Assembly (NCBI GenBank): GCA_036785375.1
Contig: JAWMAR010000007.1
Location: forward strand, 11,036,001-11,100,000
Direction: 5' to 3'
Source of the DNA: Leucoraja ocellata
Lineage: Eukaryota
Length of the DNA: 64,000 nt
Of this stretch, positions 177 through 44,867 are shown one piece after another. Below the pieces are notes generated by a model that made no database searches, had not been told where the DNA came from, and saw only the letters and a list, made by a program, of their open reading frames with translations. Made by a program: the position numbers and the translations under genes. Position 1 is the stretch's first letter; the number at the start of each line of letters is the position of its first letter.

Positions 177-225
177 ATGCTGTTCATTTTGCTTTGTGCC
201 TTTGCACTGCCTGTCACCGCTAATC
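177..225 (+). CDS. Signal-peptide exon ([16 protein letters not shown])
   Basis: ATG at 177, hydrophobic leader, consensus donor C|GTAAGT at 225/226, phase 1 matching the downstream Ig exons. Confidence 0.7.
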
Positions 226-18200: not shown

Positions 18201-21200
18201 ATGTGTCACATTTGTTTTAGTTAACTGTGTCTCAGAAGGAGTTTTCCACATGTTCCTTGGCATCCTGGAGCATTGTTCTATCTTATCTCTCATTTCTGTG
18301 TAGGTATTATCACTCGGTGCGTGTCTCTGTTAATTTTTTATCTCACACACCTTCTCCACCTCTTCATATTCCATCTGCAATCTTCTTATAATTCGATGGA
18401 AAATGACCATGCAGTAGAACATGCAGTAGAAAATGTAGTAGAGGTATACTACATCGACTGGATCCTTCCTTATCAATTCTGTTAGATATATTGTCCACCC
18501 TAACCCTAAACTCCACTTAAATTATCAACAGAACTTCCCCTTCATCAAGAATTAAAACATAAATTGCTGTAAAATTAATCAGGTCTGAATGCAAGTCAAC
18601 TGGAGGGGCGACAATATCCATGTAGGACGTTGTGTTGCTGCTACTCAGGAGGGTTTAATCTAGTTTGTCAGAAGGTTGGGAACTGGAGCAGGTGGAAAGA
18701 TTGAATGGGATGTAGACATCAGCTTAAGACTGATCAGAAGGGCTGGCGGGGCCAGGTTAATGAACGCAGTGGAACTGATGGGCTGAAGTATGTTTATTTC
18801 AATGTTATGTGTATTATGTGTAAGGCAGATGAATGTAGAGTTTGGATTAATGCATGGAACTATGATGTTGTGGCCATTAGAGTTTTGGTTGAGCGAGGGG
18901 CAGGACTGACAGCACAATGTTCCAGGGTTTTGGGCGTGATTTAGCAGCATTGTAGGTTATATCAAAATGCAACCAGGCCACCTGCAATTACTCTATTCAA
19001 TTTGATTTGAGAATTCTGCATATTATTTATAAAGAAGATGAAGTTACATTTACAGTTACATTTCACCGCTCTAGAGCAGCGCAGGAGGGTCAGGGACAGA
19101 TGGGTCAGAGTGGGAGTGGGATGGAGAAACATGGTCACAGATGTGTAGGAAGGAACTGCAGATGCTGATTTATACCGAAGATAGACACAAAATGCTGGAG
19201 TAACACAACGTGCCAGGCAGCATCTATGGAGAAATGGAATAGATTCTACTTCAGGTCTGAAGAAGGCTTCCATTCACAAACCTTACCTACTACTTTTCTC
19301 CAGAGATGCCGCATGATCTGCTGAGTTACTCCAGCATTTTGTGTCTATCAACATGGTCACAGACACAGGTAAAGTATTGATAAAAATAAATGGGGGTAAT
19401 GCATCCGACCAATGAATAATGTCCATATTTTAAATCTTTCTCTATCCGAGGTGATGTCAGCGCATCTATGGTGATCGGGAAGAGAGGAGGTAGTGCCACA
19501 CTGAACTGCAACTTCAAACACTCGAGAGCAAATAGCAGGGTGATCACTATCCTCTGGATGAAGGGGACTCCATCGGAAGAGTCCGTTGTCTTTAAACATA
19601 CCCGCTCCTACGCCACAAGCGGTCCCGGCACTGACAATGTAAATACAGGAGGTCGATATGAGCTGGTGGGAAACGTAGACAATGGAGATGCCTCCATCAG
19701 AGTGAGGGGACTCATGTTGAATGACACCAACAACTATTTCTGTCATGTTTGGACCTGGAATTCCCCTCTGAAGATAAATATTCAGGTGACTCAGGATGAG
19801 ACGGGACTACAGGTTTTGGGTAAGGAAACAGTCAGTGTTGAGGAATAAATGATAAAATCACATTGAACAACTGTGAGAAGAATGAGCTTCGTTCTGTTTC
19901 CTCTCTGAATATTTCACTCCATTCTCCCGCTGGGTCTCTTTCAAATCTTCACCCCTTCCTGGTTCTCCCCCTGCACCAATGAATAACAGTGACTTTTATC
20001 CCTCTCTAGGCTTCAGCCACCATCTTGGAGCTATGGTGATAATGTATCTGGAGATACGTGTGTGTGCGGGAGAGAATGGACAGGTTGATCATTTCAGCTG
20101 CCATTTGTTGAGTCTACTTTCTTGTGATTGGCTTCACTTTCTAGTGGTTAAACATAGATAAACATCATGTCTAATCTCCATTGCTGGTGTTGATGGGAGA
20201 ATCATGGGACCTCCAGTGACATTGTTGTCAGCCTCTGGTTCCGGTAATGGGGGAGGGGAGAAGAGAGAGTAACTCGGGTGTGAGTGATCCTTCATTATGT
20301 TGGCTGCTTTCCCAAGGAATAAATGCAGTTGATGGGTGGGGGAACGAGGGAAAACCTTTTATTCATTCTACATGGTTAATCCTGAGCTTTCTGGTGCTTG
20401 TAATCTTAATCATCCATGCAATTCCCCCTCTGACTATTTTTTGTGACTTCCTTATAACCCGTCTAATGCAATTTGAAGAACAGGGCTCTCTGCATCATTG
20501 CAGACTCCATTGAATTCAAGAATTTTGGATGATACTTTTTCTCTCTTTTATCAGAACTAACCAGTTCTACTGAAGATAAGCAAAATGGAATATTAATCAG
20601 TTATTCTCTGAACAATTATTATAACTTAAAATAAGTTAGCTGAAGTTGCAGAGGTTGTATAGAGGGGTGGATCGGAAATAGGAAATATCTCTGACAGGGT
20701 GAGTCTAGATTTGCTGTTGATGAAATTATCTGGTTGATAAATTAAGGAAGGAAACTGGAGACAGAGAACAGAAACAAAGATAGAAACAGAGCTGCAAAAC
20801 GTACGTCAGCTGCAAGAAACACGCTGCAGATCAGGCAGCGTCAGTGGAGAGAGGAGAACTGAGTCAGTATTGCAGATGGATAACCTGCTGCAGAACTTCT
20901 GATACAAACAGCGAGAAAGTTGCCAGAAATTGTTGTATTCAATGTTGACTCAATAGTTCAATGGGTCAACCGTGAATAGAACAATTTCTGGTGACTTGCT
21001 CGCTGTTTGTATCAGAACTGGCGAGTTCTACAGCATCTGTGATACTGACTCAGTTCTCCTGAAGAAGAATCACGACCCGAAACGTCACCGATTCATTCTA
21101 TCCAGAGATGCTGCCAGCCCGCTGAATTACTCCAGCATTTTGTGTCTATTTTAGGTTCAATGGTTTCTTTATTATCACATGTAGCAAGTACAGTGAAATA

Positions 21201-24200
21201 CTATTTTGCATACAGATCAGTAAGAATATCACCGTACATAAATAAGCACAACCCCCCCGGTTAGTACATCATGTACAGAAGAACCCACTGAGTCTGGGCA
21301 ACAGTTGCCATTTTGCACCATTTTATAGTCCTCGATGCAGTTGCCACAGAGGCCCCATTGCAGCCGCCGCCTCCATTCCAGTTGTCCTGGAATGTTGACC
21401 CTCACCCTGCACAGCCCTATTCAGCCCTTCTTCCCCAGGGGTGGTGTGCGGTGGGGGGGGGGGGCTCCTCCCGCAGATGAGATTAGGGCGCGGATGTTAA
21501 AAACTCCTCCACCCCGCCTGATTCCGTTAACCAGGCATTTTCTATTTGGCTGCCAGTTACTAGCAGAGTTCCGCAGGGCTTGGTGCTGGGGCCGCTGCTC
21601 TTCACGTTGTATATTAATGATTTGGATGAGGGGATTGAAGGCTTTGTGGCCAAGTTTGCACATTATACAAAAATAGGTGGATGGGCAGGTAGTGCAGAGA
21701 AAGCAGGGTCTCTGCAGAAGAACTTGGATAGGTTGGGAGAGTGGGCGGAGAAGTGGCAGATGGAAAGGTGTGGAAAAGTGTGGAGTCATGTATTTTGGTA
21801 ATAGGATTAAAGGCGTTGATTATTTTCAGAGAGAATCCAGAAATCGGAGGTGCAAGGTGACTTGAGAATGCTGGTGCAGGATTCACAAAAAGTTAATCTG
21901 CAAGTCAAATCAGTTGTAAAGAAAGCAAACGCAATGCTAGCATTTATTTCGAGAGGGTTTATATGCAAAAGTAGGGATGTAATGCTGAGAATCTTTCAGG
22001 CGCTGGTCAGGCCACATTTGGAATATTGTGAGCAATTTTAGGCACCATATCTGAGGAAGGATGTGCTGGCTCTGGAGAGGGTTCAGAGGAGGTTCACAAG
22101 AATGATCCCAGGAATGAGTAGGATAACATCAGATGAATATTTTACGGCACAGGGCCTATGTTTGCTGCAGTTTAGAAGAATGAGGGACGACCTCATTGAA
22201 ACAGACAGAATAGTGAAAGGTTTGGATGTGGAGAGGATGCTTCCACTAGTGGGACAGTTGAAGACGAGAGGTTTTAGCCTCAGAATTAAAGGACGTTCTT
22301 TTAGGAAGGAGATGAGGATGAATATCTTTGGTAGGAGGGTGGTGAATCTATGGAATTCATTGCCACAGATGGCTGTGGAGGCAGTGGATATATTTAAGGC
22401 AGAGATAAGTAGATTCCTGATTAGCGCAGATGTTAGAGGTAATGAGAAGTGCTTCGGGTGCAGAACCTAAGCTCCGCCCCCCCCCCTCCCCCCCCCCCCC
22501 CCGCCCCCCTCCCCCTCCCCACCTAATTCAGTTAACCGCGCCTTTAGTCACACTCCATCCTCCTCTCCGGTTCCCGGTCTTCAAGGTCAAGGCTCCATCC
22601 TGGCCAGACTGAAGCTGAGATGTCTTTACTTGAGATTGGCCCTTATTAGAATAGTGCAGGTCAGGAACAGGTGGATCAGAGTGGAATGGGATGGAGAATC
22701 CAAGTCACAAGTATGGATGAACTATTGATAAAGACTGTATGGTTATTGTATTCAATTACTGAATCATATTCACACTTTAAAACTCTTCTCTCTGCAAGGT
22801 GATAATGACAGAGCATCCATGGTGATTGGGAGGACGGGTGCGACTGCCACACTGCCCTGCTCCTTCAGTCCCTCGAACAGGAATCCCAGCTCCATCACCA
22901 TCAGCTGGATGAAGGGGAATCCACAAAAATGGTCTGTTGTCTTTCGTGACACTTCTCCCCGCCCAGCAGCAAATCGCATTCCTGAAAATGTGAATAAAGG
23001 AGATCGATATGATCTGTTGGGAAATCTGGATCAGGGAGACGCATCCATCAGAGTGAAGGGACTCAAACTGGATGACGCCAGTGATTACTCCTGTCACGTT
23101 TATGTCAGGAATTCAACGTTGACGACTGTGACTCAGGATGAGATGAAACTGCAGGTTGTGGGTAAGGAAACGTATGTTATGCTGTAAACGATAATATCAT
23201 ATTGAACAACCTTAAGAGGAATGAGCTCCCACTGACAGTGTAGACCAGCACAGGAACAGGCCCTTTGGCCCGCAATGTCTGTACCGAACATGATGCTACG
23301 TTAATCTCGTCTACCTGCAGGTGATGCATTTCTTCCATTACCTGCATTTCAAAAAGTCTCTAAAACTCCACTATCGTAGCTGCCTCCACCACCCCCAGCA
23401 GTATTTTCCTGGCACCCACCACCCTCTGTGTAAACAATAACTTTCCCCACATATCTCCTTTCATATTTTCCCATCTGTCCTTATCACAATGTCGTCTATT
23501 CGTTGACATTTCCGCCGTAGGCAAAAGGTTCTGACTCTCTCTCCTATCCATGTCTTTCATATTTTTATAAACTTTCAACAGTCCAGAGAAACAGTTCAAG
23601 TATGTCCGACCTTTTCTTATAACTATTACCCTCTAATCCAGGCAGCATTCTGCTAAACCTCTTCTGAACCCTTTCCAAAGTCTCCTCATCCTTCATGTAA
23701 TGGGTGAAAACTGCACATAAAACTGAATGCAATAATCCCAGTGTCGTAACTAAAGTTGTATAGAGCTACAACATGACTTCCTGACTCTTGTATTCAGTAG
23801 ATAGACACTAAAAGCTGGAGTAACTCACTGGGACAGACAACGTCTCTGGAGAGAAGGAATGGATGATGTTTTGGGTCGAGTATCATCTTCTCGACCTGAA
23901 ACATGACCCATCCTTTCTCTCCAGAGATGCTGCCTGTCCTGCTGAGTTACTCCAGCTTTTTGTGTCCATCTTCGGTTTTAACCAGCATCTGCAGTTCCTT
24001 CCTACACATCTTGTATTCAGTACCTTGACCCATGAAAGCAAGAAAACTGTACACGTTTTTAACGTGTTGCCATTTTCAGGGAGTTATGGAATTGGATCCC
24101 AATATTTTTCTGTACATCAGTGGTATTAAGGGTCTTGCCCTTGTATATTTTCCACTTGCATTCAACCTCCCAAAGACAACACTTCACATATGTTCGAATC

Positions 24201-27200
24201 AAACTCCATCTGCCATTTCTCTGCCTATATCTGTATTAGATTAAAATTTGTAGTATCTTTCGACAGTTCTATGTTCATCTGTCTTCCTCATGATACTCTT
24301 GCATTTTCAATAAGCAACACTACAGCCCATGTGTGGGTTTGATATTTGAGCTGCCACATGTGGACTGCACTCTTACGATTGGCTTCACTTTCCCATGTTT
24401 GAACAGAGGTGAACGCCACTGTCTCATCTCCAATGTTGGTGTTGACGGGAGACTTGTGGCATCTCCAATGATATTGTCATCAGACTCTAGCTATGGTGGT
24501 TTGGGTCAGGTAATATTGACTTTTGAGGCAGTTCTGGCCAGTTCTTATACTTAACAGTAAAGGGCTTGTCCCACTTAGGTGATTTTTTAGGCAACTGCCG
24601 GTGACTGTCATGGTCGTAGCAGGTTGCCGAAAAACCGGTGACTGGACCCTCCCTACGACAATGTCTACAACAACCTACCACCTAGTCGACGTTAAGCCAT
24701 GACAACCGGCGACTCAATCGTCACGACTTAGGACGTCCACCTACGACCACACCTAGACAACCCTACGACCACACAGGTGACAACCTACGATAACTCGTCA
24801 ACCGACCTCCCCCCGCGACAAGCTACGACAAGTTACGACCCTGTCGGTGACAATTGAAGACTTCTCTTGACGCCGGTAGCTGTCGCCGGTTGACGCAGGT
24901 TGACGTAGGTAGTCCCCAAATGAATTCATCGAAGTCAGCAGCAGCGACAACATACATCATCCTGGCAACAACCTATGTTATCCTGGCGACAACTTACGAC
25001 AGCACCTACGTCAGGAGAAGACAAGCTACGACAAGCCCAAGATCGCTGAGTGTCGCCAAAAAGATTTGAACATTTCAAAATCCTGCGGCGACCAGAAAAA
25101 CGCTACGGATCTTTGGGCGACTTGAGGAGACGACTCACGACCCTACATGTGACACCCGGCAACCGTGTGGTGACCGCCTAGTCGCCCGTTGTCGCCTAAT
25201 AATCGCGTACGTTGGACAGGCCCTTAAGCAAGTTATTGAAATTGTTGTATTAAATGTTAACACAAAAGCTTCATGCTGCCCAGACAGAAGATGAGGTTGC
25301 TTGAGATTGGGCCTCGTTAGAACAGTGCAGGAGGTCTGAGACAGACAGATCAGAGCGGGAGTGGGATGGGGAATCAATGTCACAGGCATGGATGATGTAT
25401 TTTTATAAACCATGTGGAATAGATTGTTAAATACAACTTTTCTCTATACAAGATGGAAAGAAGAAGACATCCATGGTGATTGGGAAGAGAAGAGATTCAG
25501 CCACACTGCCCTGCTCCTTCAGCCCCTTGAACAAGAATCCCAGCCCCATCACTGTCCGCTGGATGAAGGGGAATCCACGGGAAGAGTCCACAGTCTTTAA
25601 TCACACCCACCCCCACTCTGTGAACCCTCCCTCCACTGTCACTGTAAAGGGAGGAGGTCGATATGAGCTGGTGGGAAAACTAGACCAGGGAGACGCCTCT
25701 ATCAGAGTGAAGGAACTCAGACTGGACGACAGCAGTGACTATTTCTGTTACGTTTGGGACAGGAATTCCACACAGGAGACGGTGACTCAGGATGAGACTA
25801 AACTGGAGGTTGTGGGTAAGGAAATATCTGTCTGTGTTGTGCTGTGAACGATAAAATCACATTAACAACTGTAAGAGGACATATTTAAGAGGGAGTTAGA
25901 TGTGGCCCTTGTGGCTAAGGGGATCAGGGGGTATGGAGAGAAGGCAGGTACGGGATACTGAGTTGGATGATCAGCCATGATCATATTGAATGGCGGTGCA
26001 GGCTCGAAGGGCCGAATGGCCTACTCCTGCACCTAATTTCTATGTTTCTATGTTTCTATGAGATCCACTGACAGCTGGAGCCGAGATCGGCCCAATCCAT
26101 TGTAGGTTCCATTCCTTGCACCGGGCTTCCCTTGCTCAGCACTGCCCCTAGTGGTTGGAAAACAGTGCTGATTCCAGCCAGGTTGCACGGAGCTCCCTGC
26201 AGCAGGATCAGAGATTCAGAACCACATTCACCAGCTGAACCTCCAGTCCCTATGTCTGTGAATGGTCTGTGTTACAAAGATCCACAGACGGCCCAGGGGT
26301 ATCATCCGTCTCTTTCATTCACATCGACTCCGGGATCCTGTATGTTCTCTCACTGAATATTACATAGAACAGTACAGCACAGGACCAGGCCCTTTGGCCC
26401 GCAATATCGGTGCAGAATATAATGGTTCTGTAAGTTAAACTAATATCATCTGCCGACACATGATCCATATCCCTCCATTCCCTGTAGATCCATGTGCTTC
26501 TCAAAGACACTGTCATATCTGCAAATATTTCACTGCAGTCTCCTAGATGTGTCCTTCCAATCCCCATTCAGATGGAGTTTATCTGCACACACCAACAGTG
26601 ATTAATTCAATTAATTTAATTTAATTTCTTCCTTCTCCAAGTCCCAGCCACCATCCTGGAGCTGTTCGTTGTGAGTGACAATGTAACTGGAGAACACACC
26701 CTCGTGTGCAGGGCTGAAGGGAAGCCCCCTGCAAACATCACATGGATCGGCCCAGGGAACAGTGCTCTGCCCGTGAACATTAGTGAGATGACAGTCACAC
26801 ATGATCCAGAGAAACTACTGACTGTGGGAGAGCTGCTTCACCTCAGGCTGCCAGGGAAATACACGTGTGTGGCTGAGAATGAACACCAGATGGACACGCG
26901 TGAGATCCGCCTATTCGAGGTTGGGGGAGTGTTGCACCCAGGCGTCTACATTGGATTATCCATATTGGCTATTGGCCTGATGGTATTTGCTCTCATATCT
27001 TTGAAAAAATGTGAGTTTGCCAATAACAACTACATTGTGGGCTGTTGTGGGTGTTCTTGGGACTGGTGGCTTTTTCAAATATTATAGGCCGGAAATGTGA
27101 ACAGGAGGCCAGTCATCCCTGGTTAGGCCACATTTGGAGTATTTTGTCCAGTTCTGGTCACCACATTTCAGGAAGGATTTGGACACTTTGGAGAGGGTGC

Positions 27201-30200: not shown

Positions 30201-33200
30201 ATTGTCTTCATTTTATCTCAATCCTTTGTAAAGTAAAGTATCCTTTATTGTCATTCAGACCTTCCGGTCTGAACAAAGTTTTGTGCCTTGCAGTCATACA
30301 TATAATAAAATAACAAAAACACACAATAAACCCAAATTTAACATCCACCACAGTGAGTCTACCAGGCACCTCCTCACTGTGATGGAAGGCAAAAGTCTTA
30401 AAGTCTTTGTCTCTTCCTTCCTTGTTCTCCCTCTGCGCTGAGGCGATCCAGGCTTCCCATGTTGTGACCCCGCGGGGTGATGGTAAGTCAGTTCCACGGC
30501 TGAATCCAAGCTCCGCGAACGGGCCGGCTCAAACTCCGCGGCCCGGGGTGGTTGAAACTGTCGCCCTCCAGTCCAGCAGACGAAACTGTTGTAGTGGGAG
30601 CTCTGGAAAAACAGATCACCAACCTGTGACCTGTGAGCTCCCGACGATGTTGTCCCCTGGGCCTGCGGCTGAGCCTCCGAAGTCGGGTCGCCGCCGGAAC
30701 GCCGCCACAGCTCCATCCATCTGCCACTCAACCCTTTTCTGAATCTACCAACATCTGTCAGTTTTTGCCACACCCGTTCCCCTTCAACTCTCCTTGCCAG
30801 CTTTCTCCCCTCTACTGCATCAATCTGATGAAGGATCGCGACCCAAAACATTATCTATCCATTTCTCTCCACCGCAGAGCCTGCGTGGCCCTATGAATTT
30901 CTCCAGCACTTTGTTTTTTACTGGGGAAAGTAGTTATGGACCAACTGCTATTGGGAAAGTTTGCATCAGGAAGTGAGAGTGATTTAATGATGAGAGGTTG
31001 TAAATTTAGTCTCGAAGGAAAAGGATTCATATGCAAAGTTTAAGGAACAGAAATTGGACAGGGCCTTTAAGGAAGATTATGAAAGAAAAGAACTTGAGCA
31101 GGGAATTAGTAGGCCCAGATGGGAGCATGATGGGCTCAGAGACCCATGAGCTGAGAGTAGAGAAGTGTGTTAAAGGAGGAAGAGTGGGAGAGGTATCTAG
31201 AGAGAATTCTCACGGAATACTTTCCTGTGTCTTTGACAGGTTCACAGCAGCGTGTGTGTTGTGTGGATGCCAGCACGGCCAATGGTCGGAAACCACAAGG
31301 ATCAGAGCCAGGTAATAGGAGAATCTGCCAAAACTTCCTTTCATATTGAGGCCATTCTTTGGAAAAGCAGAGCTCAAACCCACATTTAATAACTGGCCTT
31401 TCAATTGTCGCTACCACCTACCCTCCTTCCCTACCTCCAACAGCCTTCTAATTAGATCAGCAAAGACAATCCCTCTCAGAGCAGATCAGGTTGTGTGTTC
31501 AAGTGGAATATTAATACTTAAAAGACTCGCCTTAAGGCCCAGGGCTTGCACTAAGATTCCAGATTCCTCAGTCATGGGAATTAATCTACTCTGTCGAACC
31601 TACTGGAAGTATTTTGTATTGGACACCTGTCCTTAACTCTAAAGATTGAAGGTCCAACCTATTTAATCTCTTTGTCATCCCAATAACCAGCCTCATGAAC
31701 CTTTGCTGCTCAACCTGCAAAGTAAGTACAGATAGTACTGCTCAACATAGGTTTTGAAATCGCAAATTGGCTACAACACGATTGCTAAATTAGGTAATGC
31801 TATTATGCAGCTTGAATTGGTTATAAAATAATCTCTATCAGGAAGTAGAGATCCAGTTAAAAGTTACTTTGGAAAGCAGAAAAAAAGCTATCTGGGAAAA
31901 AACAACCTGGGGAGAAAAAAACATGTTCATGTAACCTCCCTGCAGTAAGCAGTCACCACTGTCTCTTATGAATACAGATCATCATGGGTGGCCAAGCAAT
32001 CATTTAAATTGACATGTGTGCAGTGATACTCTATTAAACAATGTAACATTGAGCCATCAGTATTTGTAGATTGCAGCTACAAAACTAAACTTGGAGCTAT
32101 AAAATAGATCTTTGTTTTTAAAAAAAACCAGTGGGAGAAATAACATTGTTATTGCAAGCCTCATAATCACCAGCCCCTTACCTCCTTTTTCTCATTGGCA
32201 CAATTATTTTCAGAATGTAATTTTTTACAATAAGATGTTCCTTAAGAATGCAGCATTCGTGGTATAGCGGAATTGCCTGTACATTGCTTTTTAGGGTAAG
32301 GAGACCAATATTATATCTAATACACCAGCTTTGGTTTTGAAAGGTCATTGTAATTTGGAATTGATCCTATTATTCCCAAAGTAACAATACCTGATCAATG
32401 TATCTCATAGATTTGCACAAATAACCTCATCTATGTAACCCTCCACCACGCCTGAGGATAGGGTTGGAAAGTTCTGCATTTTGCGATTACTCCAGGATTC
32501 CCTTCAGCTTTGACCCTGTGGGAGGGGATGGGGTGGACAGTTTGGGAGCTCTAATTTCTCCATTGAAATACGCATTGCTTTTTTGTGTCTTTGACAGGTT
32601 CACAGGAGCCTGAAGGGGATCCTATTTACAGTGTTGTTGATTTAAACACAGAGACAAGAAACAGGGCAGCCACCCAGGCAGTCCCAACTCCGAGAGAATT
32701 GGACAGGAATGTTGGTGAGTGCAGTGATGGTTATCATTTGAAATTTGCACAGAGGTAACCAGGAGGAAGAGATGCAGAAAGTAAAGGCCAGCTTTCACGA
32801 TCCAGCTCCTGCAGCAGAGTGGTTAAAAGTTGTAATTTTATGGATACAGCACGGAAATAGGCTGTTCTGCCCACTGAGTTCATGCCAACCATTGATCATA
32901 CTTTCACACTAATTCTATATCAACCCACTTTCTCATCATCTCCATGGATCTTAGGGGCGATTTAACCCGCATATCTATGAGGTGGTGGAGGAAACTGGAA
33001 CATCCGGAGGTAAGCCAAGCATTCATGGGGACGAGCACAGACTCCATACAGTCTGTATTGAACCCAGATCTCTGGTGCTGTGCTGTGGCGCTGCTGGCAG
33101 AGCTGCTGCCTCACAGCGCTTGAGACCCGTGTTCGATCCCAAACTTGGGTGATATCAGTGTGGAGTTTGCACATTTTACCTGCTGCGCCACTGTGCTGCC

Positions 33201-36200
33201 ACTGTCATTGAGGAAGGGAGCTCCTATTGATCTGAGAAACAAAGAGGGGATGTTTCTGAGGCAAGCTGGAGAAGGTAGAGATCCCAAGATTAGCAAAGTG
33301 GACCAGCTTACAGAAAATGGGAAAAGAGAACCTTCACACTGAAATGCCCCCGAGCTGGAGCCAGTGGAGGCCAATGGAGCGTTTTGTACAGATTAAAACT
33401 CACGTAAGAGGTGACAAGGCTGGAATGATTGAAGATAGGGACATGGGTTTCAGCAGCAGACGTGTTTGGAGTGGGACTGGGGGAACATGCAGTATCATGG
33501 ATGTAAAAATTAGAGGCATTAAAGTGAGAAAAAACTTGACTAAGCTCCCAAAGCATCTTTGCAGAATGGATTTGAGAAGATGTTTGCTCTTGTGAGCAAA
33601 CCTGGATTGAAGAGTTACTGTTCACAAGTAGGGGTCACCCATTTTAGGATGACTTGATTTCCGTTTCTTAGATCAACAGTCTTTGGAACTCTCTTCCTCA
33701 AAAGATTGAGTTTTTAATATTTTGGGCCAGAGATAGATGGAGAATATCTGGAAACAGAAATATCTGGAAACCCACAACAGGTCAGGCAACCTCTGTGAAA
33801 AGAGAAAGCACTAACATTCGTGCTGGACACACCTTCGTCAGACGTTTCATGCTCTTGAAGAGCACAGGGGTGAGCATTTAGCAGGTGGGATATCAGTCAT
33901 GATATCATTGAAAAGCAGAGCTGAGTGGTCGATTCTTGCTCTCAATTTGTATTCAAAGGTTACAAAGGTCTTTTATTGTCACATGTACCAATTAAGATAC
34001 AGTGTTTTGTGAATTACCATACAGCCATACAAGACACACAATTATATAAAAGTTAACATAAGCATCCACATCAGCAGGTTCCCTACATTCCTCACAATCA
34101 TCATCCTCTTTAAGAAATATATGAGTGAAACTTTCCCTTGCAACTGCAGGAGATGCAAACCTGTCCCTACATCTCCTCCCTTACATCCATCCAGGAACCC
34201 CCAGCAGTCCTTCCAGGTGAGACAGAGGTTAACCTGCACCTCCTCCAACTTCATCTACTGCACCTGATGTGGCCTCCTTTCCATTGGCGAGACCAAATAT
34301 AGCTTCGGCGACCGTTCCACTGAACACAAACTCTGTGTAACAAGACCTGTTGGATCTCTCTGTTGCTATATATTTTAACTCCCCTTCCCATTCCCATCCT
34401 AACCTCACTGTCCTGGGCCTCCTCCATTGTTAAAGTAATACCATACACAAACAGCACCTTATAGAAACATAGAAAATAGGTGCAGGTGTAAGCCATTTGG
34501 CCCTTCGAGCCTGCACCGCCATTCAATATGATCATGGCTGATCATCCAACTCAGTATCCTGTACCTGCCTTCTCTCCATACCCCCTGATCCCTTTAGCCA
34601 CAAGGGCCACATCTAACTCCCTCTTAAATATAGCCAATGAACTGGCCTCAACTACCTTCTGCGGCAGAGAATTCCAGAGATTCACCACTCTCTGTGTGAA
34701 AAATGTTTTCCTCATCTCGGTCCTAAAAGATTTCCCCCTTATCCTTAAACTATGACCCCTTGTTCTGGACTTCCCCAACATCGGGAACAATCTTCCTGCA
34801 TCTAGCCTGTCCAACCCCTTAAGAATTTTGTAAGTTTCTATAAGATCCCCTCTCAATCTCCTAAATTCTAGAGAGTATAAACCAAGTCTATCCAGTCTTT
34901 CTTCATATGAAAGTCCTGACATCCCGGGAATCAGTCTGGTGAACCTTCTCTGTACTCCCTCTATGGCAAGAATGTCTTTCCTCAATTAGGAGACCAAAAC
35001 TGTACGCAATACTCCAGGTTATATTCCGCTTGGTTTGTTTACAACCTAACGGTGTGAACATTGAATTTTTCAATGTTAGGTAACTAACCAGCAAAACCCA
35101 TCTACACTTCTCCCCACCCCCTTCCCACCGCACCTCTCTCTTCTCTGTGCCCCAACAGGACGAGCACCCATTTTAATGCTCCCCTCCCCTTTCACCCACA
35201 TTCATTCCTCTGGCTTCACAATTCACATGTATCCTTATCTCACACCTTCAGTCTTTCACCTCTGGCCGCTGTTCAACCCACCTGCCAATCAAATAACCCC
35301 CTCATGTGTAGGGAACAGTGAACACATGGTGAGCAGCAAAACAATGCCAGTCCCAAGATTCGTGCCTCCAGGGCCTTGTCAATATTCTATTTTACACCTG
35401 CAGGGAAGTAAAACTGCAGAAAAGGGAGTAGGGTGATAAGAAAGGGGAGATATTGGGCTGTCAGGGCTAGGGATGGGGGGGGAGAGAGACTGTTGGACAG
35501 TTACAGTTTAGTTTGGTGTCACGTGTACCGAGGTACAGTGAAAAGCTTTTTGTTGTGTGCCATCCAGTCAGCAGGAAGACAATACATGATTACAATCGAG
35601 CCATTTACAGTGTATCGATACATGATAAGGGAATAACATTTAGTGAAAGTAAAGCCAACAAAGTCCGATCAAGGACAGTCCGAGGGTCATCAAAAAGGGA
35701 GATAGTAGTTCAGGGGCTGGGATTGTGAGGTTAAGATAGCAAGGCGATGAATTTGTGCAGTAAATTTATGTCCTTTCCAGATCGCCTCTTAACCGGTACT
35801 CGAAAGAGGGAGCACATTACGCCAATTTTGGCCTCCCTTCACTGGCTCCCGGTGTACATTCGAGTTCATTTTAAAATTATTTTATTTGTTTTTAAATCGT
35901 TGAATGGGCTCGCCCTGCCTTACCTCTCTGAGCTGCTCCACCCATACGCTCCTGCCCGGTGCCTCAGGTCAGCTGATCAGCTGCTCCTTGAGGTACCAAG
36001 GTCTAAGCGGAAGCTCAGAGGGGATAGAGCCTTTTCTATTGCTGCTCCGGCACTCAGGAACACCTTGCCGTTGCACATCAGACAGGCCCCCTCACTGTCC
36101 ATCTCCAAATCCACCCTAAAAACTCATTTTTATTATCTGGCTTTCGACACTGGCTGAGACATTGCTCCTGTTTTTAGTGCTTTTAATGTCTTTTGATTTT

Positions 36201-39200
36201 TACTGTTTTATAGTCCTTTGTTTTACGGTTTTAATGGTTTGAAATAACTTCTTGTCCATGAGTTCTCATGTACAGCACTTTGTGGCAACTGCAGTTGTTT
36301 AAAGTGCTTTATAAATAAAGTTATTATTATTATTATTACTCTCCAGATGCCCTCATTTACAGCATTGTTCACATTCAAAGCCGTTCTCGAGTAGGAGTGG
36401 AGATAGGTAAGGAACAGTAAGCACACGGTGAGCTGTGAAACAACGTGGTGGTGTGGACGCCCCATGTAAAATAGTGTCCCCAACGGGCTGGGAGGCAAAC
36501 CCTTGATGTACTGACTAGAACCATCCACTGGTACTGACCATATACACTGGGCTTCCCAGCGAGCCTGTGATCCAGAGCTCTCCATATCCAACATTCAGGG
36601 CAGGTGCAGCAAAGGCCAGACATGGTGGAAGTAGTAACAAAGACCCAGGACATAGAGTTACTAGAGATCCTGGTGTTGTTTATTTTCCGCTTCCCACCAA
36701 CGGGCAGCCAAGCATTAGACCTGGAAGTACAATGCTGTCTATTCTGCAGTACGGTTCTGTACAGAAGCAGCGAGGGTTCTCTTGGGGCATGCAACGTATC
36801 ATAATGAGGGGTGAAGAACAGTCTTGGCAAAAGATGGACCACTATAGGAGGGGCAATCGGAACAGGCAAGAGACAGTGATTATCAAAGGTGGGGACTCAT
36901 GGAGTCATAGAGCACAGAGACAGGCTCTTTGGTCCAACTTGCTCAAGCCAACCAAAATGCCCATCCACACTAGTCCCAATTGCCTGCATTTGGCCCATAT
37001 CCCTATACACCTTTCCAAACCAAGTACCTGTCCCAATGTCGTTTAAATGGGAGTGGGTGGTTTGAGTGATAGAATACAGTGGGGGAGCGATGCTGGAATG
37101 CAATAACAATCTGTGTTCTTTTCAGATCCCCAGGAGTATCAGAATAACACTCTGTACAGCAATTTGCACATTCAAAGACCTCCCTGCAAAGAGGAGGAGA
37201 CTGGTAAGGACCACCGAATACACCGTGAGCGGCAAAATACACACATCTGCGAGGACACCCCTTTGGAACACATCAAACCCATTTCATACTGAGTGAGCCC
37301 AGCACCGATCCCTGTGATACACCACTAGTCACAGGCCTCCAGTCTGAAAAGCAACCCATCACCACCACCTTCCACCAAGCCAAATTCATATCCAATTGGC
37401 TCATTCACCCTAGACCTCATGTGATTTAATCTTCCAGAATGGTAAGCCATTTGAGAACTTGGCAAAGGCCATGTTAACGTTCATGCAGGCAATGTGTACC
37501 AGCTCTGCCCTCGTCAATAGACTCATCGAAAGCTCAGTCAAATTCACACACAAATTCCACACACAAAGCCATGCCCTCATTTACAGCATTGTTCACATTC
37601 AAAGCCGTTCTCGAGCTCTCCATATCCAACATTCAGGGGCAATCGGAACAGGCAAGAGACAGTGATTATCAAAGGTGGGGACTCATAGAGTCATAGAGCA
37701 CAGAGACAGGCTATTTGGTCCATCTTGCTCAAGCCAACCAAAATGCCCATCCACACTAGTCCCAATTGCCTGCATTTGGCCCATATCCCTATACACCTTT
37801 CCAAACCAAGTACCTGTCCCAATGTTGTTCAAATTGGAGTGGGTGGTTTGTGTGATAGAATATTGTGATAGAGGATTTCTTGGAATGTATGCGGGATAGT
37901 TATCTAAATCAACATGTAGAGGAACCAACGAGAGAGCAGGCTATTTTAGACTGGGTATTGAGTAATGAGGAAGGGTTAGTTAGCAATCTTGTTGTACGTG
38001 CCCCCTTGGGCAAGAGTGACCATAATATGGTTGAGTTCTTCATTAGGATGGAGAGTGACATTGTTAATTCAGAAACAATGGTTCTGAACTTAAAGAAAGG
38101 TAACTTTGAGGGTATGAGACGTGAATTGGCCAAGATTGACTGGCAATTAATTCTAAAAGGGTTGACGGTGGATATGCAATGGAAGACATTTAAAGACTGC
38201 ATGGATGAACTACAAAAATTGTTCATCCCAGTTTGGCAAAAGAATAAATCAGGGAAGGTAGTACATCCGTGGATAACAAGGGAAATCAGGGATAGTATCA
38301 AAGCGAAGGATGATGCGTACAAATTAGCCAGAAAAAGCAGCATACCGGAGGACTGGGAGAAATTCAGAGACCAGCAGAGGAGGACAAAGGGCTTAATTAG
38401 GAAAGGAAAAATAGATTATGAAAGAAAACTGGCAGGGAACATAAAAACTAACTGCAAACGTTTTTATAGATGTGTGAAAAGAAAGAGATTAGTTAAAACA
38501 AATGTAGGTCCCTTGCAGTCAGAAACAGGTGAGTTGATCATGGGGAACAAGGATATGGCGGACCAATTGAATAACTACTTTAGTTCCGTCTTCACTAAGG
38601 AAGACATAAATAATTTGCCGGAAATAGCAGGGGACCGCGGGTCAAAGGAGTTGGAGGAATTGAGTGAAATCCAGGTTAGCCGGGAAGTGGTGTTGGGTAA
38701 ATTGAATGGATTAAAGGCCGATAAATCCCCAGGGCCAGATAGTCTGCATCCCAGAGTGCTTACGGAAGTAGCTCCAGAAATAGTGGATGCATTAGTAATA
38801 ATCTTTCAAAACTCTTTAGATTCTGGAGTAGTTCCTGAGGATTGGCGGGTAGCAAATGTAACCCCACTTTTTAAGAAGGGAGGGAGAGAGAAAACGGGGA
38901 ATTACAGACCAGTTAGTCTAACATCGGTAGTGGGGAAACTGCTAGAGTCAGTTATTAAAGATGGGATAGCAGCACATTTGGAAAGTGGTGAAATCATTGG
39001 ACAAAGTCAGCATGGATTTACGAAAGGTAAATCATGTCTGACGAATCTTATAGAGTTTTTCCAGGATGTAACTAGTAGCGTGGATAGGGGAGAACCAGTG
39101 GATGTGGTGTATCTGGACTTCCAGAAGGCTTTCGACAAGGTCCCACACAAACCTAAAGTACACGGCATTGGGGGTTCAGTATTGATGTGGATAGAGAACT

Positions 39201-42200: not shown

Positions 42201-44867
42201 CACAATAACAGTTCCTCACTACTATACCTAACCACTGTGGGTTCGATCCTTGTATCTGATTGGCCAAGCTCTCCTAGCCTTGTGCAAGCAGAGACACTCC
42301 AAACAGTCGCACAGTCCCAAACGTTCTCCCAGAAGATCGACTCAGGACCTCGTGGGAGTGGCCTTTTATAGGTGCCCGAACCTTGAGGGACGAATCATAT
42401 GGGGGTGGTCTCTTTACAGTCCAATAACAGATATCGATTAACACAGTACATGATAGACATTTCCCAAACCCAATAATACAGTAACTAATACTTTGTATTC
42501 AAACGGAGCTTCTGGAAGGAAGCAAACATAGCAACATGTGCCTTGTTATTCAAGAAACCTAGACAAGGCTCAACACTTAATCCAATCAACATCTTGCAAA
42601 GTAAAGCTTTGGAACAATATTAACAATGTATATATCTGGTTTGCATTCACCCAATCCGTTTCATGCAATTTACACCTAATTGTAAGAATCCGCAGAAGTC
42701 CCATTCTTTTCCTACAACTCTTATCTAGGCTCCAGACAAGCTGGCACCATTCTGCAGCTTGTCCCATTTCTGCAGAAGGCACATTTAAATTGACCAAATG
42801 GCCTAGCAGACCAGAAGCCTTTACACAATTTTAGTGTCTTGGCATCTCCAATTTGGCCAGAATTAACATCAAAATCCCCTCCAGTAATTCCCTCACCACT
42901 ACAGGCTCACTGGTCTGTAGTTCCCTGTCTTGTACTTGCAGCCCTTCTTAAATAGGGGCACAACATTTACCACCCTCCAATCTTCCAGTACCACTCTTAT
43001 GTTAAAGATGATGCAAATGCCTCTGCCAGAGCACTTGAAATTTCGTCCCTAGCTTCCTGCAATATCCTAGGATACATCTCATCAGGCCTGGGACATTTAT
43101 TTACCCTAATATGTCTTAAGACTGCCAGCACCTCTTTTGTAATGTAGATATGTTCCAATGTATTGCAATTCAATACTCTTAATTCCTAACTTCCATGACC
43201 TTCTCCACGATAAATACAGATGAGAAATGTTAATTTAAAACCTCGCCCATCTCCCATTGATGACCATGTTGATCCTATTCTCTTTATTTAGCCTTTTGCT
43301 CTTAATATACTTCGAGAATTTCTCTGAGTTCTCCGTTATCTTATCTGCCATAGCTATCTCATGTCCTCTTTTTGTCCTCTTTATTTCGCTCTAAATTGAA
43401 AGCCTACATCCTTTATACTTGAGAGGTTTGCTTGATTCCCAGCTACCTATATCTGACATATGCCCCTGTTGCATGACTAATGTTTCAATGTCCATCATAA
43501 ATCATGTTGAATGGCTGAATGGCCAACTTCCCTCCCTATTCCTTACATTCTGTGGACAAGATTCCTCAGACAGTAGCTTGGCTCTGTGTAGTTGGCTGTC
43601 AACCAGAGGACATGGGTTTAACTCAAGAACCAGGTGACTTTTGTTTAACGTGAGAGCTAAAAGATATAATAGGAAAAAGAAGGGCAACATTTTCACACAG
43701 AGGGTGGTGGTCAGAGCTACCAGAGGAGGGTAGTTGAGGAAGGTACTATGACAACATTTCAAAGACATTTGGTCAGGTACATGGAAAGGAAAGGTTTAGA
43801 GACATATGGGCCAAATGTGGGCAAGTGGGCTTAGTGTAGATGGGCATCTTGGAAGACATGGGCAAGTTGGACCGAAGGGCCTGTTTCCATACTGTATGAC
43901 TCTGACTCTATAAACAGCTGATGATCCTGGTCTCAGGGGGTTGGATGGATGATGGGGGGAAGGGGTCAGTGTGGGAGCAAAGAGCTTCGAAATGGGGCAA
44001 GTTCCCTCTGGCAATGAGAAGAGTAAGAGTACCCGCAATATAGAGGAGAGAGTCTCTGACAAGCCGGTTCTCTGATGGGTGAGAGGGCCTGGCCTTCCTC
44101 AAACTGGGTTGAATTCAAGCAATTTTCTAATATTGAGAGGGCAGGTCCAGGGAAAGCCAGGCACAATTGAAGAAGGACCAGAATACAAGGAGCCCAAATC
44201 AACCAGGATGACCATATCATCAGTTTATCTAACCTGTCTAACCAGCAGTTGAGTGAAAGACTGGGGAGAGTGGCCATCAGACGATAATGGAGAGGGGGTG
44301 TTGGATCTGGGGTGGAAGGCTGACTGAATTTGCAGAGAGGGTTCCAGTTCTGGATAGGCTCTGAGTTTGAGAGATTAGAAGTTTTCCTCTCACGAGGGGA
44401 ATGGATTGGTTGTTTGCATACCTATCTATTCCAAGAGTACGGCAATCAAATGCGGGAGGATGAGTTTAAGATGCGACGGGAAAGATATAATAGGAACCTG
44501 ATAGGTAAATTTTTCACACAGAGGGTGATGGTATATGGAACGAGCTGCCAGAAGAGGTAGTTGAGGCAAATACTCTGACAACATTTAAAAGACAGGTGCA
44601 TGGTTTGGAAAGGTTAAGAGGGATATAGGCCAAACACAAGCATGTGGGATTAGAGTATATGGGGCATCTTGGTCGGCATTGGAAAGTTGGGCCGAAGGGC
44701 CTGTTTTCGTGTTGTATAACTATGGTTCTCAATGGTTTGAATCAAGATAGAAGAATCTTACAATGACAACATAAAATCATAAAAATTGAATTGTTTATCT
44801 TCCAGGCTGCATTTATGCAACGGTTGTATATACAAAAGAACAGGCCAAGGATGCAAGTGGAGAATAA
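177..44867 (+). CDS. Multi-exon Siglec-15-like Ig-superfamily receptor (SP-V-V-V-V-C2-TM-multi-ITIM/ITSM tail), ~815 aa if all 13 exons are joined
   Basis: Exons: 177-225, 14942-15331, 19451-19819, 22799-23161, 25453-25815, 26642-27010, 31240-31311, 32598-32714, 36347-36406, 37126-37203, 40348-40425, 41587-41664, 44806-44867. All have AG/GT boundaries and phase-1 introns. Summed length is 2448 nt, open to TAA at 44865-44867. The first V and the C2-TM exon resemble Siglec-15. Confidence 0.75.
814..4614 (-). pseudogene. L1 ORF2 (endonuclease-reverse transcriptase) with one in-frame TAA at 1264-1266
   Basis: Motifs [37 protein letters not shown]. The frame continues past the stop (HRLYYSK...CDKC...HSFVFC) into ORF 814-1101. 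Confidence 0.92.
5541..6572 (-). pseudogene. L1 ORF1 (coiled coil + RRM/CTD) with one in-frame TGA at 6102-6104
   Basis: ORFs 6102-6572 and 5541-6011 share a frame. The linker reads [15 protein letters not shown], followed by AHR, PRQIIVK and YPA motifs typical of L1 ORF1. Confidence 0.88.
6981..10930 (-). mobile_element. CR1-clade LINE (HER1-like), near full length, disrupted ORF2
   Basis: SGNH-esterase ORF1 at 10064-10876 (GDS...DGLH). EN/RT fragments ([29 protein letters not shown]). 3' tail (CTATGTTT)n at 6981-7017. Confidence 0.93.
12130..14362 (+). mobile_element. 5'-truncated CR1-clade LINE, degenerate
   Basis: RT fragments ([12 protein letters not shown]) with frameshifts; 3' tail TTCTATGTCTCTATGTTTCT. 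Confidence 0.9.
14375..14515 (-). mobile_element. Degenerate tRNA-derived SINE (V-SINE/HE1-like)
   Basis: Similar to the SINE copy at 28690-28850 (GGCACAGTGGAGCAGC...GAGCTGCT...GACTCAGAGTTTAATCCTGAC on the minus strand). Confidence 0.45.
14942..15331 (+). CDS. V-set Ig exon V0, Siglec-15-like, retains the essential Arg
   Basis: Acceptor TCTTCACAG|, donor |[33 protein letters not shown] and CRVEL parallel Siglec-15 CTFTHPHRHYDG, RFRLLGNPRRNDLSL and CRVEF (recalled from memory). Confidence 0.88.
18570..18935 (+). mobile_element. Old CR1 fragment (ORF1 end / endonuclease start)
   Basis: GLKYVYFNV...WNYDVVAI resembles the CR1 ORF2 N-terminus. Confidence 0.55.
19451..19819 (+). CDS. V-set Ig exon V1
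   Basis: ATLNC...W...RYELVG...DASIRV...D-x-x-x-YFC. Acceptor is a weak CCGAG|, donor |GTAAGG, phase 1-1. Confidence 0.85.
20000..20085 (+). pseudogene. Decayed relic of the C2-set exon 5' end
   Basis: CAGCCACCATCTTGGAGCT..GTGATAATGTATCTGGAGA..GTGTGCGGG aligns to 26642-26725 with indels and a shifted acceptor. Confidence 0.65.
21530..22445 (+). mobile_element. CR1 RT 3' fragment, degenerate
   Basis: [22 protein letters not shown] and VVNLWNSLP fragments with frameshifts. Confidence 0.85.
22799..23161 (+). CDS. V-set Ig exon V2
   Basis: ATLPC...W...RYDLLG...DASIRV...DYSC. Acceptor TCTCTCTGCAAG|, donor |GTAAGG, phase 1-1. Confidence 0.88.
23235..23790 (-). mobile_element. Degenerate CR1-like 3' fragment
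   Basis: FTQRVVG-type C-terminal peptide in ORF 23360-23599. Confidence 0.6.
24561..25224. mobile_element. Non-autonomous PIF/Harbinger-type DNA transposon (MITE)
   Basis: Imperfect ~24-bp TIRs (AGGGCTTGTCCCACTTAGGTGATT / AATCGCGTACGTTGGACAGGCCCT), TAA duplication at 24558-24560 and 25225-25227, CGAC-rich non-coding interior. Confidence 0.75.
25453..25815 (+). CDS. V-set Ig exon V3
   Basis: ATLPC...W...RYELVG...DASIRV...DYFC. Acceptor TTTTCTCTATACAAG|, donor |GTAAGG, phase 1-1. Confidence 0.88.
25881..26058 (+). mobile_element. Short 3' end of a young CR1/HER1-like LINE
   Basis: Near-identical to 40118-40293, (CTATGTTT)n tail, and interrupts intron sequence that is contiguous after V1 and V2. 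Confidence 0.9.
26642..27010 (+). CDS. C2-set Ig domain + transmembrane exon
   Basis: [18 protein letters not shown]...GKYTCVAEN parallels Siglec-15 LCTAEGEPPPALAWSGP...GRYTCTAAN. Hydrophobic [20 protein letters not shown] is followed by KK. Acceptor TTCTCCAAG|, donor |GTGAGT. Confidence 0.9.
27085..28400 (+). mobile_element. Old CR1-like RT/3' fragments
   Basis: GTTAGGCCACATTTGGAGTATT...CAGTTCTGGTC and TTTGCAGATGAT segments are homologous to the other CR1 copies; heavily degraded. Confidence 0.55.
28690..28850 (-). mobile_element. tRNA-derived SINE (V-SINE/HE1-like)
   Basis: The minus strand has A-box-like TGGCACAGCGGTAG and B-box-like GGTTTGATCC, then GGAGTTTGTAAGTTCTCCCTGT. Related copies lie near 32960-33200 and 52655-52830. 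Confidence 0.6.
28920..29260 (-). mobile_element. Rex1/Babar-like LINE 3' fragment
   Basis: [12 protein letters not shown]...[13 protein letters not shown]...RFRNSFFP, homologous to 49769-50011. Confidence 0.65.
29502..30132. repeat. Minisatellite, 20-bp unit CCACTGGGACACA(G/A)GGAGGC, about 31 copies
   Basis: Direct head-to-tail units with single-base variants and no spacers. Confidence 0.97.
31240..31311 (+). CDS. Cytoplasmic exon 1 ([23 protein letters not shown])
   Basis: Acceptor TTTCCTGTGTCTTTGACAG|, donor CAG|GTAATA, 72 nt, phase 1-1, open frame. Confidence 0.65.
32598..32714 (+). CDS. Cytoplasmic exon 2 with ITIM-like PIYSVV
   Basis: Acceptor TTTTTTGTGTCTTTGACAG|, donor |GTGAGT, 117 nt, phase 1-1; [39 protein letters not shown]. 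Confidence 0.78.
34461..35020 (-). mobile_element. CR1/HER1-like 3' fragment, young
   Basis: Near-identical to 6990-7560; ORF 34551-34985 is the RT C-terminus. Confidence 0.92.
35783..36338 (+). mobile_element. L2-clade LINE 3' fragment with (TTA)n tail
   Basis: [14 protein letters not shown]...RAFSIAAP...LP...LKTHF is an L2-type ORF2 C-terminus, followed by AATAAAG(TTA)n. Flanked by CT(T/C)TCCAGAT direct repeats at 35773-35782 and 36339-36348. Confidence 0.85.
36347..36406 (+). CDS. Cytoplasmic exon 3 with canonical ITIM LIYSIV
   Basis: CTCTCCAG|...|GTAAGG, 60 nt, phase 1-1; [20 protein letters not shown]. Confidence 0.72.
37126..37203 (+). CDS. Cytoplasmic exon 4a ([26 protein letters not shown])
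   Basis: TGTTCTTTTCAG|...|GTAAGG, 78 nt, phase 1-1, TxYxxL motif. Confidence 0.78.
37862..40293 (+). mobile_element. Young 5'-truncated CR1/HER1-like LINE inserted in repeat unit 2
   Basis: 560-aa and 211-aa ORF2 parts and a (CTATGTTT)n tail. It interrupts GATAGAATACAG, which is contiguous in units 1 and 3. Confidence 0.95.
40348..40425 (+). CDS. Cytoplasmic exon 4b (identical to 4a, TLYSNL)
   Basis: Same intact acceptor and donor, 78 nt. Confidence 0.7.
41587..41664 (+). CDS. Cytoplasmic exon 4c with canonical ITSM TLYSTV
   Basis: Same acceptor and donor; differs from 4a/4b only at AGCAATTTG vs AGTACTGTG. Confidence 0.78.
44806..44867 (+). CDS. Terminal coding exon with ITIM/ITSM-like CIYATV
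   Basis: Acceptor TTGTTTATCTTCCAG|, phase 1; [20 protein letters not shown]. Confidence 0.72.

What the first reader, a model, noticed from the sequence alone, without database searches (positions are those of the whole stretch)
35773..36348. L2 insertion duplicated a splice acceptor and created an in-frame exon trap
Seen: the L2 fragment is flanked by CTTTCCAGAT and CTCTCCAGAT, so the TSD contains the CAG|AT acceptor of the LIYSIV exon. The upstream copy keeps the original pyrimidine tract (TTTATGTCCTTTCCAG) and leads in phase 1 straight into the open L2 ORF2 C-terminus (DRLLTGTRK...AFDTG*, stop at 36157), followed by AATAAA near 36314. The downstream copy now depends on the (TTA)n tail. Inference: two competing acceptors, one giving a receptor with a ~125-aa LINE-derived tail and no downstream ITIM/ITSM, i.e. 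a transposon-made signalling switch.
Basis: partly seen in the sequence, partly recalled or inferred. Interest (0 to 1): 0.7.

Follow-up and report, generated by a model that had tools for sequence, protein, structure and literature searches.

The report
LINE landed inside receptor coding exon
A young LINE retrotransposon fragment sits just inside a coding exon of a skate immune-receptor gene and did not duplicate the splice site; the gene likely survives by splicing to a look-alike site 18 bases further into the old exon, which would cost only six amino acids.

Summary
The sequence is as described, but the history is not. In a related organism without the insertion, both look-alike 10-mers are already present, 18 nt apart, so they are not a target-site duplication. 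The upstream AG is the exon's native acceptor. The downstream one is old coding sequence (Asp-Ser-Pro-Asp), as the Rhinoraja protein confirms. The LINE inserted 3 nt inside a 78-nt ITIM exon of a Siglec-15-like receptor and deleted 6 nt, a known short target-site truncation. The open 125-codon LINE frame is unremarkable: 23 of 27 family copies examined are open, 3 of the 4 paralogues carrying this insertion have premature stops, and the window copy's changes look neutral. Both Leucoraja erinacea RefSeq models retrieved use the downstream acceptor, so the likely outcome is an in-frame rescue that loses 6 aa. No RNA junction read was obtained, so a minor LINE-terminated isoform lacking the downstream ITIM remains possible but unshown.

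The parts
177..225 (+). Leader exon ([16 protein letters not shown]), phase-1 donor at 226
   Evidence: the same peptide is in Amblyraja P0003 and Rhinoraja P0004
14942..15331 (+). V1 exon, Siglec-15-like V-set domain with CRVE
   Evidence: PF07686; PDB 7zoz Siglec-15, E 6e-13
19451..19819 (+). V2 exon
22799..23161 (+). V3 exon
25453..25815 (+). V4 exon
26642..27010 (+). C2-type Ig plus transmembrane exon; no Lys within the hydrophobic stretch
31240..31311 (+). Cytoplasmic exon c1
   Evidence: matches P0001 and P0004
32598..32714 (+). Cytoplasmic exon c2 (PIYSVV); its phase-1 donor faces the insertion
35761..35783 (+). Native acceptor of exon A (AG at 35779-35780) and the first 3 nt of the old exon; the last two are a microhomology with the LINE
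   Evidence: Rhinoraja DPRDSPDPLIYSIV
35784..36337 (+). 5'-truncated, sense-oriented LINE fragment (L2-type by recalled motif): ORF2 C-terminus to the stop at 36155-36157, 3' UTR, AATAAA at 36314, (TTA)n tail; replaces 6 nt of exon
36338..36346 (+). Old coding sequence (from the Asp-Ser-Pro-Asp codons), now a candidate cryptic acceptor with AG at 36345-36346
36347..36406 (+). Exon A remnant, 60 of the original 78 nt, (D)[19 protein letters not shown] with ITIM-like LIYSIV; donor intact
37126..37203 (+). Exon B (78 nt, TLYSNL); further copies with intact splice sites start at 40348 and 41587
44806..44867 (+). Last coding exon (CIYATV...SGE*)
   Evidence: matches the end of P0004

Best explanation
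A 5'-truncated LINE inserted 3 nt inside the 78-nt ITIM-coding exon of a skate Siglec-15-like receptor gene, deleting 6 nt and duplicating nothing, and the gene is likely rescued because splicing would shift to an in-frame AG already present 18 nt into the old exon. Shown: the insertion anatomy, the two pre-existing AG sites, the insertion's presence in all four paralogues, and neutral-like decay of the LINE frame. Inferred: the T-rich LINE tail now serves as the pyrimidine tract. Exon definition would favour the 60-nt remnant over a 626-nt read-through exon. The whole LINE would then leave as intron, and the protein would lose only DPCDSP while keeping LIYSIV. Use of the native acceptor would give a stop 249 nt before the next junction (predicted NMD) unless the LINE AATAAA is used, and is likely minor.
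For: Empty site with both 10-mers. The Rhinoraja protein has the 6 extra residues, and the L. erinacea X1 and X3 models lack exactly these. Native exon A is 78 nt like its sister exon B. Organism B differs from all four paralogues at 25 of 38 listed sites, so the empty state is the outgroup state. The L. erinacea tail is closest to paralogue P2's first B exon and shares its 3-nt-shorter form, so it probably descends from an insertion-bearing copy. Pyrimidine counts at the downstream site (13/17) match the gene's other acceptors (12-15/17). Short target-site truncations and junction microhomologies are normal for an L2 LINE: 5 of 25 ZfL2-2 inserts in wild-type cells (PMC2666801, passages). The LINE frame has stops in 3 of 4 paralogues, and 7 nonsynonymous to 2 synonymous changes in the window copy against a neutral 69:28 expectation.
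Against: No RNA read across any of the three junctions was obtained. The L. erinacea evidence is a pair of gene models whose transcript support I could not see; both end in intronic sequence and lack the leader. I could not show directly that L. erinacea carries the LINE; if it does not, the downstream AG was in use before the insertion. The native acceptor AG is retained in all four paralogues. Conservation of the remnant is not significant: 0 of 68 sites vary among P1-P3 against 83 of 2644 flanking sites, P about 0.11 by hand. The empty site comes from one sample of a relative, and one of three differences in that laid piece was not located.
Confidence: 0.72

Rival explanations
1. Two-isoform decoy: the native acceptor is still used often and the LINE AATAAA ends the transcript, giving a stable receptor without the downstream ITIM/ITSM-like motifs beside the rescued form. 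The truncation would matter, not the LINE peptide.
For: The native acceptor is intact in all four paralogues, AATAAA lies 533 nt downstream, and the insertion is shared by all four copies. Precedent: the L2-derived polyadenylation signal of IL18R1-Short (PMC13232192, abstract). Stops in the LINE frame would only shorten a junk tail.
Against: None of the 18 proteins retrieved with the C2-TM exon, and neither protein read for the L. erinacea locus, was seen to carry a LINE tail (14 sequences read). The c2 query returned one protein, with the downstream junction. AATAAA is present in the family copies, so it is not a local innovation. Paralogue P4 lost the AATAAA by deletion.
Confidence: 0.12
2. 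Exon A is mostly skipped: c2 splices to exon B (all exons are phase 1), and tandem copies of exon B supply the tyrosine motifs.
For: Skipping keeps the frame. P4 has deleted the downstream acceptor and its first A and B exons yet keeps an open ectodomain and three B copies. P1 has three B copies and P2 four.
Against: Both L. erinacea models include the A remnant, and the remnant is identical in P1-P3.
Confidence: 0.12
3. One reading: a target-site duplication copied the acceptor, and a 125-aa LINE-derived tail is a selected signalling switch.
For: The 10-mers match at 9 of 10 positions, and the frame is open and in phase in the window copy.
Against: The empty site holds both 10-mers. 23 of 27 family copies are equally open, and 3 of 4 paralogues have stops at codons 8, 28 and 51. 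Rough flank matches at other copies are 2-7 nt, never 10.
Confidence: 0.02

Closest known systems
Short target-site truncation by an L2 LINE (ZfL2-2; PMC2666801, passages read)
   Same: Deletion of 20 bp or less at the target, short microhomologies at both junctions, 5' truncation.
   Different: Here it is an old germline event in a coding exon, shared by four paralogues.
One-sided intron sliding to a cryptic site at a multiple of three (PMC2891723, passages read)
   Same: The acceptor moves 18 nt to a pre-existing in-frame AG, and a few residues are lost.
   Different: The trigger is a LINE insertion between the two sites, while the old AG stays intact; that paper found no alien-sequence mechanism in its set.
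IL18R1-Short, an L2-derived polyadenylation decoy (PMC13232192 abstract; review PMC13709765, passages)
   Same: An L2 3' end with AATAAA lies upstream of the signalling exons of an immune receptor.
   Different: That element is ancient and intronic, with expression and function shown; this one is young, exonic and has no transcript evidence.
Siglec-15 (PDB 7zoz; PMC6941304, one passage)
   Same: The N-terminal V-set domain aligns through CRVE, followed by Ig domains and a transmembrane segment.
   Different: Five Ig domains rather than two, no transmembrane Lys, and a long tail with tyrosine motifs. A conventional Lys-bearing copy lies elsewhere on the contig (L102).

Membership tests
Target-site duplication | The repeated motif is present once in the empty site | tested here: not met
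   Both 10-mers are present 18 nt apart in organism B; the Rhinoraja protein agrees
Target-site duplication | Direct repeat abutting both ends of the element | tested here: inconclusive
   A 9/10 match abuts both ends, but the same mismatch is in all three paralogues that keep both ends
Short target-site truncation | 20 nt or fewer of target lost at the insertion | tested here: met
   6 nt missing relative to the empty site; microhomology 2 nt at the 5' end and 1 nt at the 3' end
L2-clade LINE | Reverse transcriptase ORF upstream of this C-terminus | tested here: met
   RVT_1 at E 2e-28 and 2e-29 in two longer copies; the 125-aa fragment itself has no Pfam hit
L2-clade LINE | 3' end of short tandem repeats rather than poly(A) (feature recalled) | tested here: met
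   (TTA)n tail in the window and in the 27 copies shown
L2-clade LINE | RT phylogeny within L2 rather than another CR1-group clade | not tested
TE-exonised or TE-polyadenylated decoy receptor | Transcripts joining the host exon to the TE and ending at the TE signal | tested here: inconclusive
   Two RNA runs of organism C gave only trace depth on c1 and c2 and none on exon A
TE-exonised or TE-polyadenylated decoy receptor | Selection on the TE-derived coding sequence | tested here: not met
   Stops in 3 of 4 paralogues; 7 nonsynonymous to 2 synonymous changes in the window copy
One-sided acceptor sliding | Pre-existing cryptic AG at a multiple of three | tested here: met
   18 nt; 6-aa gap
One-sided acceptor sliding | The new acceptor is used in mRNA | tested here: inconclusive
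   Two RefSeq models in L. erinacea only; no reads
Siglec-15 proper | Two Ig domains | tested here: not met
   Four V-set plus one C2-type
Siglec-15 proper | Transmembrane lysine for DAP12 | tested here: not met
   Absent in the window gene, present in L102 and P0011
Siglec-15 proper | V-set arginine in CRVE (its role is recalled) | tested here: met
   Aligned to 7zoz
Siglec-15 proper | Sialic-acid binding | not testable with these tools
   Needs a glycan-binding assay

The most novel reading that the evidence does not exclude
One exonic LINE insertion gave a skate inhibitory Siglec-15-like family a built-in switch. The native acceptor now opens a LINE terminal exon that polyadenylates and drops the downstream ITIM/ITSM-like motifs, while the LINE's own tail activates a cryptic in-frame acceptor that restores them. 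Cells would tune the ratio of decoy to inhibitory receptor, which would explain why the insertion spread to all four paralogues.
Probability: 0.1. Interest if true: 0.6.

Novelty: new member of a known kind. Interest (0 to 1): 0.27.

Why it matters
It is a clean, datable example of a coding-exon LINE insertion that is probably tolerated through an 18-nt acceptor shift, with an empty site and annotated proteins on both sides of the event. It also shows how a 9/10 flank match can mimic a TSD. The mechanisms are all known. It would matter more only if the LINE-terminated isoform proved stable and regulated. The host family (multi-V Siglec-15-like receptors with tyrosine-motif tails in skates) may be of more interest than the insertion.

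Tried and rejected
RNA test: no RNA holder was listed for the stretch. Two raw RNA runs of organism C (X16 and X9, about 25% and 5% read) gave trace depth on c1 and c2 in X9 only and none on exon A; repeat-derived reads swamped the joint and loose-end tables. This is no evidence on expression. Organism A runs X3 and X6 laid nothing at the 5' junction, which is uninformative. No empty site was found in the window's own genome: all four copies of the upstream flank run into the LINE, and the other exon A copies are tandem-duplicate starts without an AG. Conservation of the exon remnant was not significant. The flank-repeat survey of 27 copies is a rough heuristic, and several 5' ends lay near the locus edge. 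One donor-like site inside the LINE (35990) would shift the frame and was set aside. No calibrated splice-site scorer was available, so only pyrimidine counts were used. Literature searches listed no paper on this locus or on ITIM-bearing Siglec-15 paralogues in skates; this covers the open library only and listings only. Earlier-findings look-ups returned nothing. No supplements were read; supplementary tables of PMC2666801 could refine the truncation figures.

Full report
Observation. The two 10-mers (35773, 36339), the 125-codon phase-1 frame with its stop ending at 36157, AATAAA at 36314 and the (TTA)n tail are all present. A genome search gave 2584 candidates, of which 40 were scored and 30 fetched. 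Three match across both flanks, and the other 27 match only about 35782-36338 at 96-98%. Most of those copies continue upstream with a shared family sequence unlike the window's, so the upstream 10-mer is host DNA. Two longer copies carry a reverse transcriptase domain. The L2 label rests on a recalled motif and the tandem-repeat tail; no clade tree was built.

Host gene. The window holds an apparently intact receptor gene: leader, four V-set exons, a C2-plus-transmembrane exon, and cytoplasmic exons c1, c2, A, B and last, joined in phase 1. V1 matches Siglec-15 (7zoz, E 6e-13). The closest proteins are from skates, with L. erinacea at 96%. It is not Siglec-15 proper: it has five Ig domains and no transmembrane Lys, which PMC6941304 (one passage) gives as essential for DAP12 binding. 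Four paralogues on the contig share c2, and all four have the same LINE 5' junction. P2 is broken (stop in V2, truncated V4). P4 lost the LINE 3' half with its first A and B exons.

Empty site. In organism B (runs X4 and X5, one sample), one 759-nt contig follows the window to 35783 at record letter 99, continues with CCTGTGACTCTCCAG, and rejoins at 36347 at letter 115. Read from the upstream AG this gives [14 protein letters not shown], an exon of 78 nt, the length of its sister exon B. The Rhinoraja protein independently reads DPRDSPDPLIYSIV. B differs from all four paralogues at 25 of 38 listed sites; 7 are window-specific and 6 are mixed. I dropped 4 of the 40 rows shown because they lay in repeats, added 2, and the tool hid 763 more. 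So B is an outgroup and the empty state is ancestral. The insertion removed 6 nt and has 2-nt and 1-nt microhomologies. PMC2666801 (passages) reports short truncations in 5 of 25 ZfL2-2 inserts in wild-type cells, with TSDs in the other 20. The supposed TSD is the native acceptor plus a chance look-alike in Ser-Pro-Asp codons.

The LINE frame. An in-phase fusion has a one-in-three prior. 23 of 27 family copies are open over the same codons, although these are best-scoring, young copies. The window copy has 7 nonsynonymous and 2 synonymous changes, against a neutral 69:28:3 split for nonsynonymous, synonymous and stop changes. The other three paralogues stop at codon 8, codons 28 and 51, and codon 51 plus a 1-nt deletion. 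The peptide is not conserved. This does not exclude a truncated isoform, because stops only shorten its tail.

Which acceptor is used. L. erinacea isoforms X1 and X3 both read [10 protein letters not shown], exactly 6 aa shorter than Rhinoraja. Their tail best matches P2's first B exon (96% over 46 aa, sharing the 3-nt-shorter form), so the gene probably carries the insertion, but I could not check its DNA. These are models: I did not see their transcript support or isoform X2, and both end in intronic sequence. The two sites have similar pyrimidine counts (12/17 and 13/17). From general knowledge of exon definition and NMD, a 60-nt exon is favoured over a 626-nt one, whose stop would lie 249 nt before the next junction. 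The remnant and its acceptor are invariant among P1-P3 (0 of 68 sites, against 83 of 2644 flanking sites), which is not significant. No junction read was obtained, so usage is inferred.

Rivals. A LINE-polyadenylated decoy has a precedent in IL18R1-Short (PMC13232192, abstract and outline). The review PMC13709765 (passages) cautions that many such exons go to NMD. Skipping of exon A is also in frame and is the only downstream route left to P4. I give rescue 0.72, decoy 0.12, skipping 0.12 and the original TSD switch 0.02.

Verdict. This is an exonic LINE insertion with a short target-site truncation, probably tolerated by one-sided acceptor sliding, a process described in PMC2891723 (passages). 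It is a new instance of known processes. Searches listed nothing on this locus, within the open library. Interest 0.27.

Noticed in passing
window 36347-42050: Tandem units of about 1.24 kb (exon A, intron, exon B, intron) begin exactly at 36347, the start of the proposed new exon, through an ATGC microhomology. The copied A exons (37571, 40808) have no acceptor, while the B copies keep both splice sites. B copy number is 3, 4, 1 and 3 in P1-P4, which could vary the number of ITSM-like motifs.
   Followed up: partly
G000:C7 about 10.98-11.38 Mb and L102: A cluster of Siglec-15-like genes: four with tyrosine-motif tails and no transmembrane Lys, three (L100, L101, L103) with a different transmembrane segment preceded by Arg, and a conventional Lys-bearing Siglec-15 about 7 Mb away (L102). 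This looks like a paired-receptor family; literature searches listed nothing on it.
   Followed up: partly
window 14942-15331 and paralogues: The V1 exon is the most divergent ectodomain exon among paralogues (87-93%, with in-frame indels, against 95-98% for V2-V4), a hint of diversifying selection on the ligand-binding domain.
   Followed up: no
L043 (G000:C7 about 11.363 Mb): Paralogue P4 has a deletion from the middle of the LINE into the intron after exon B, so every remaining exon A copy lacks an acceptor.
   Followed up: partly
window 37859-40295: A young reverse-transcriptase element with a 562-codon open stretch interrupts the second tandem unit and is 95% identical to an inverted copy at 6996-9419.
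   Followed up: no
window 29502-30133: A G+C-rich minisatellite with self-matches offset by 60 nt in the intron after the transmembrane exon.
   Followed up: no
window 1264-4629, minus strand: A 1121-codon open frame resembling an L1-type ORF2 (label recalled) in the first intron, with a more decayed copy at 46944-51539.
   Followed up: no
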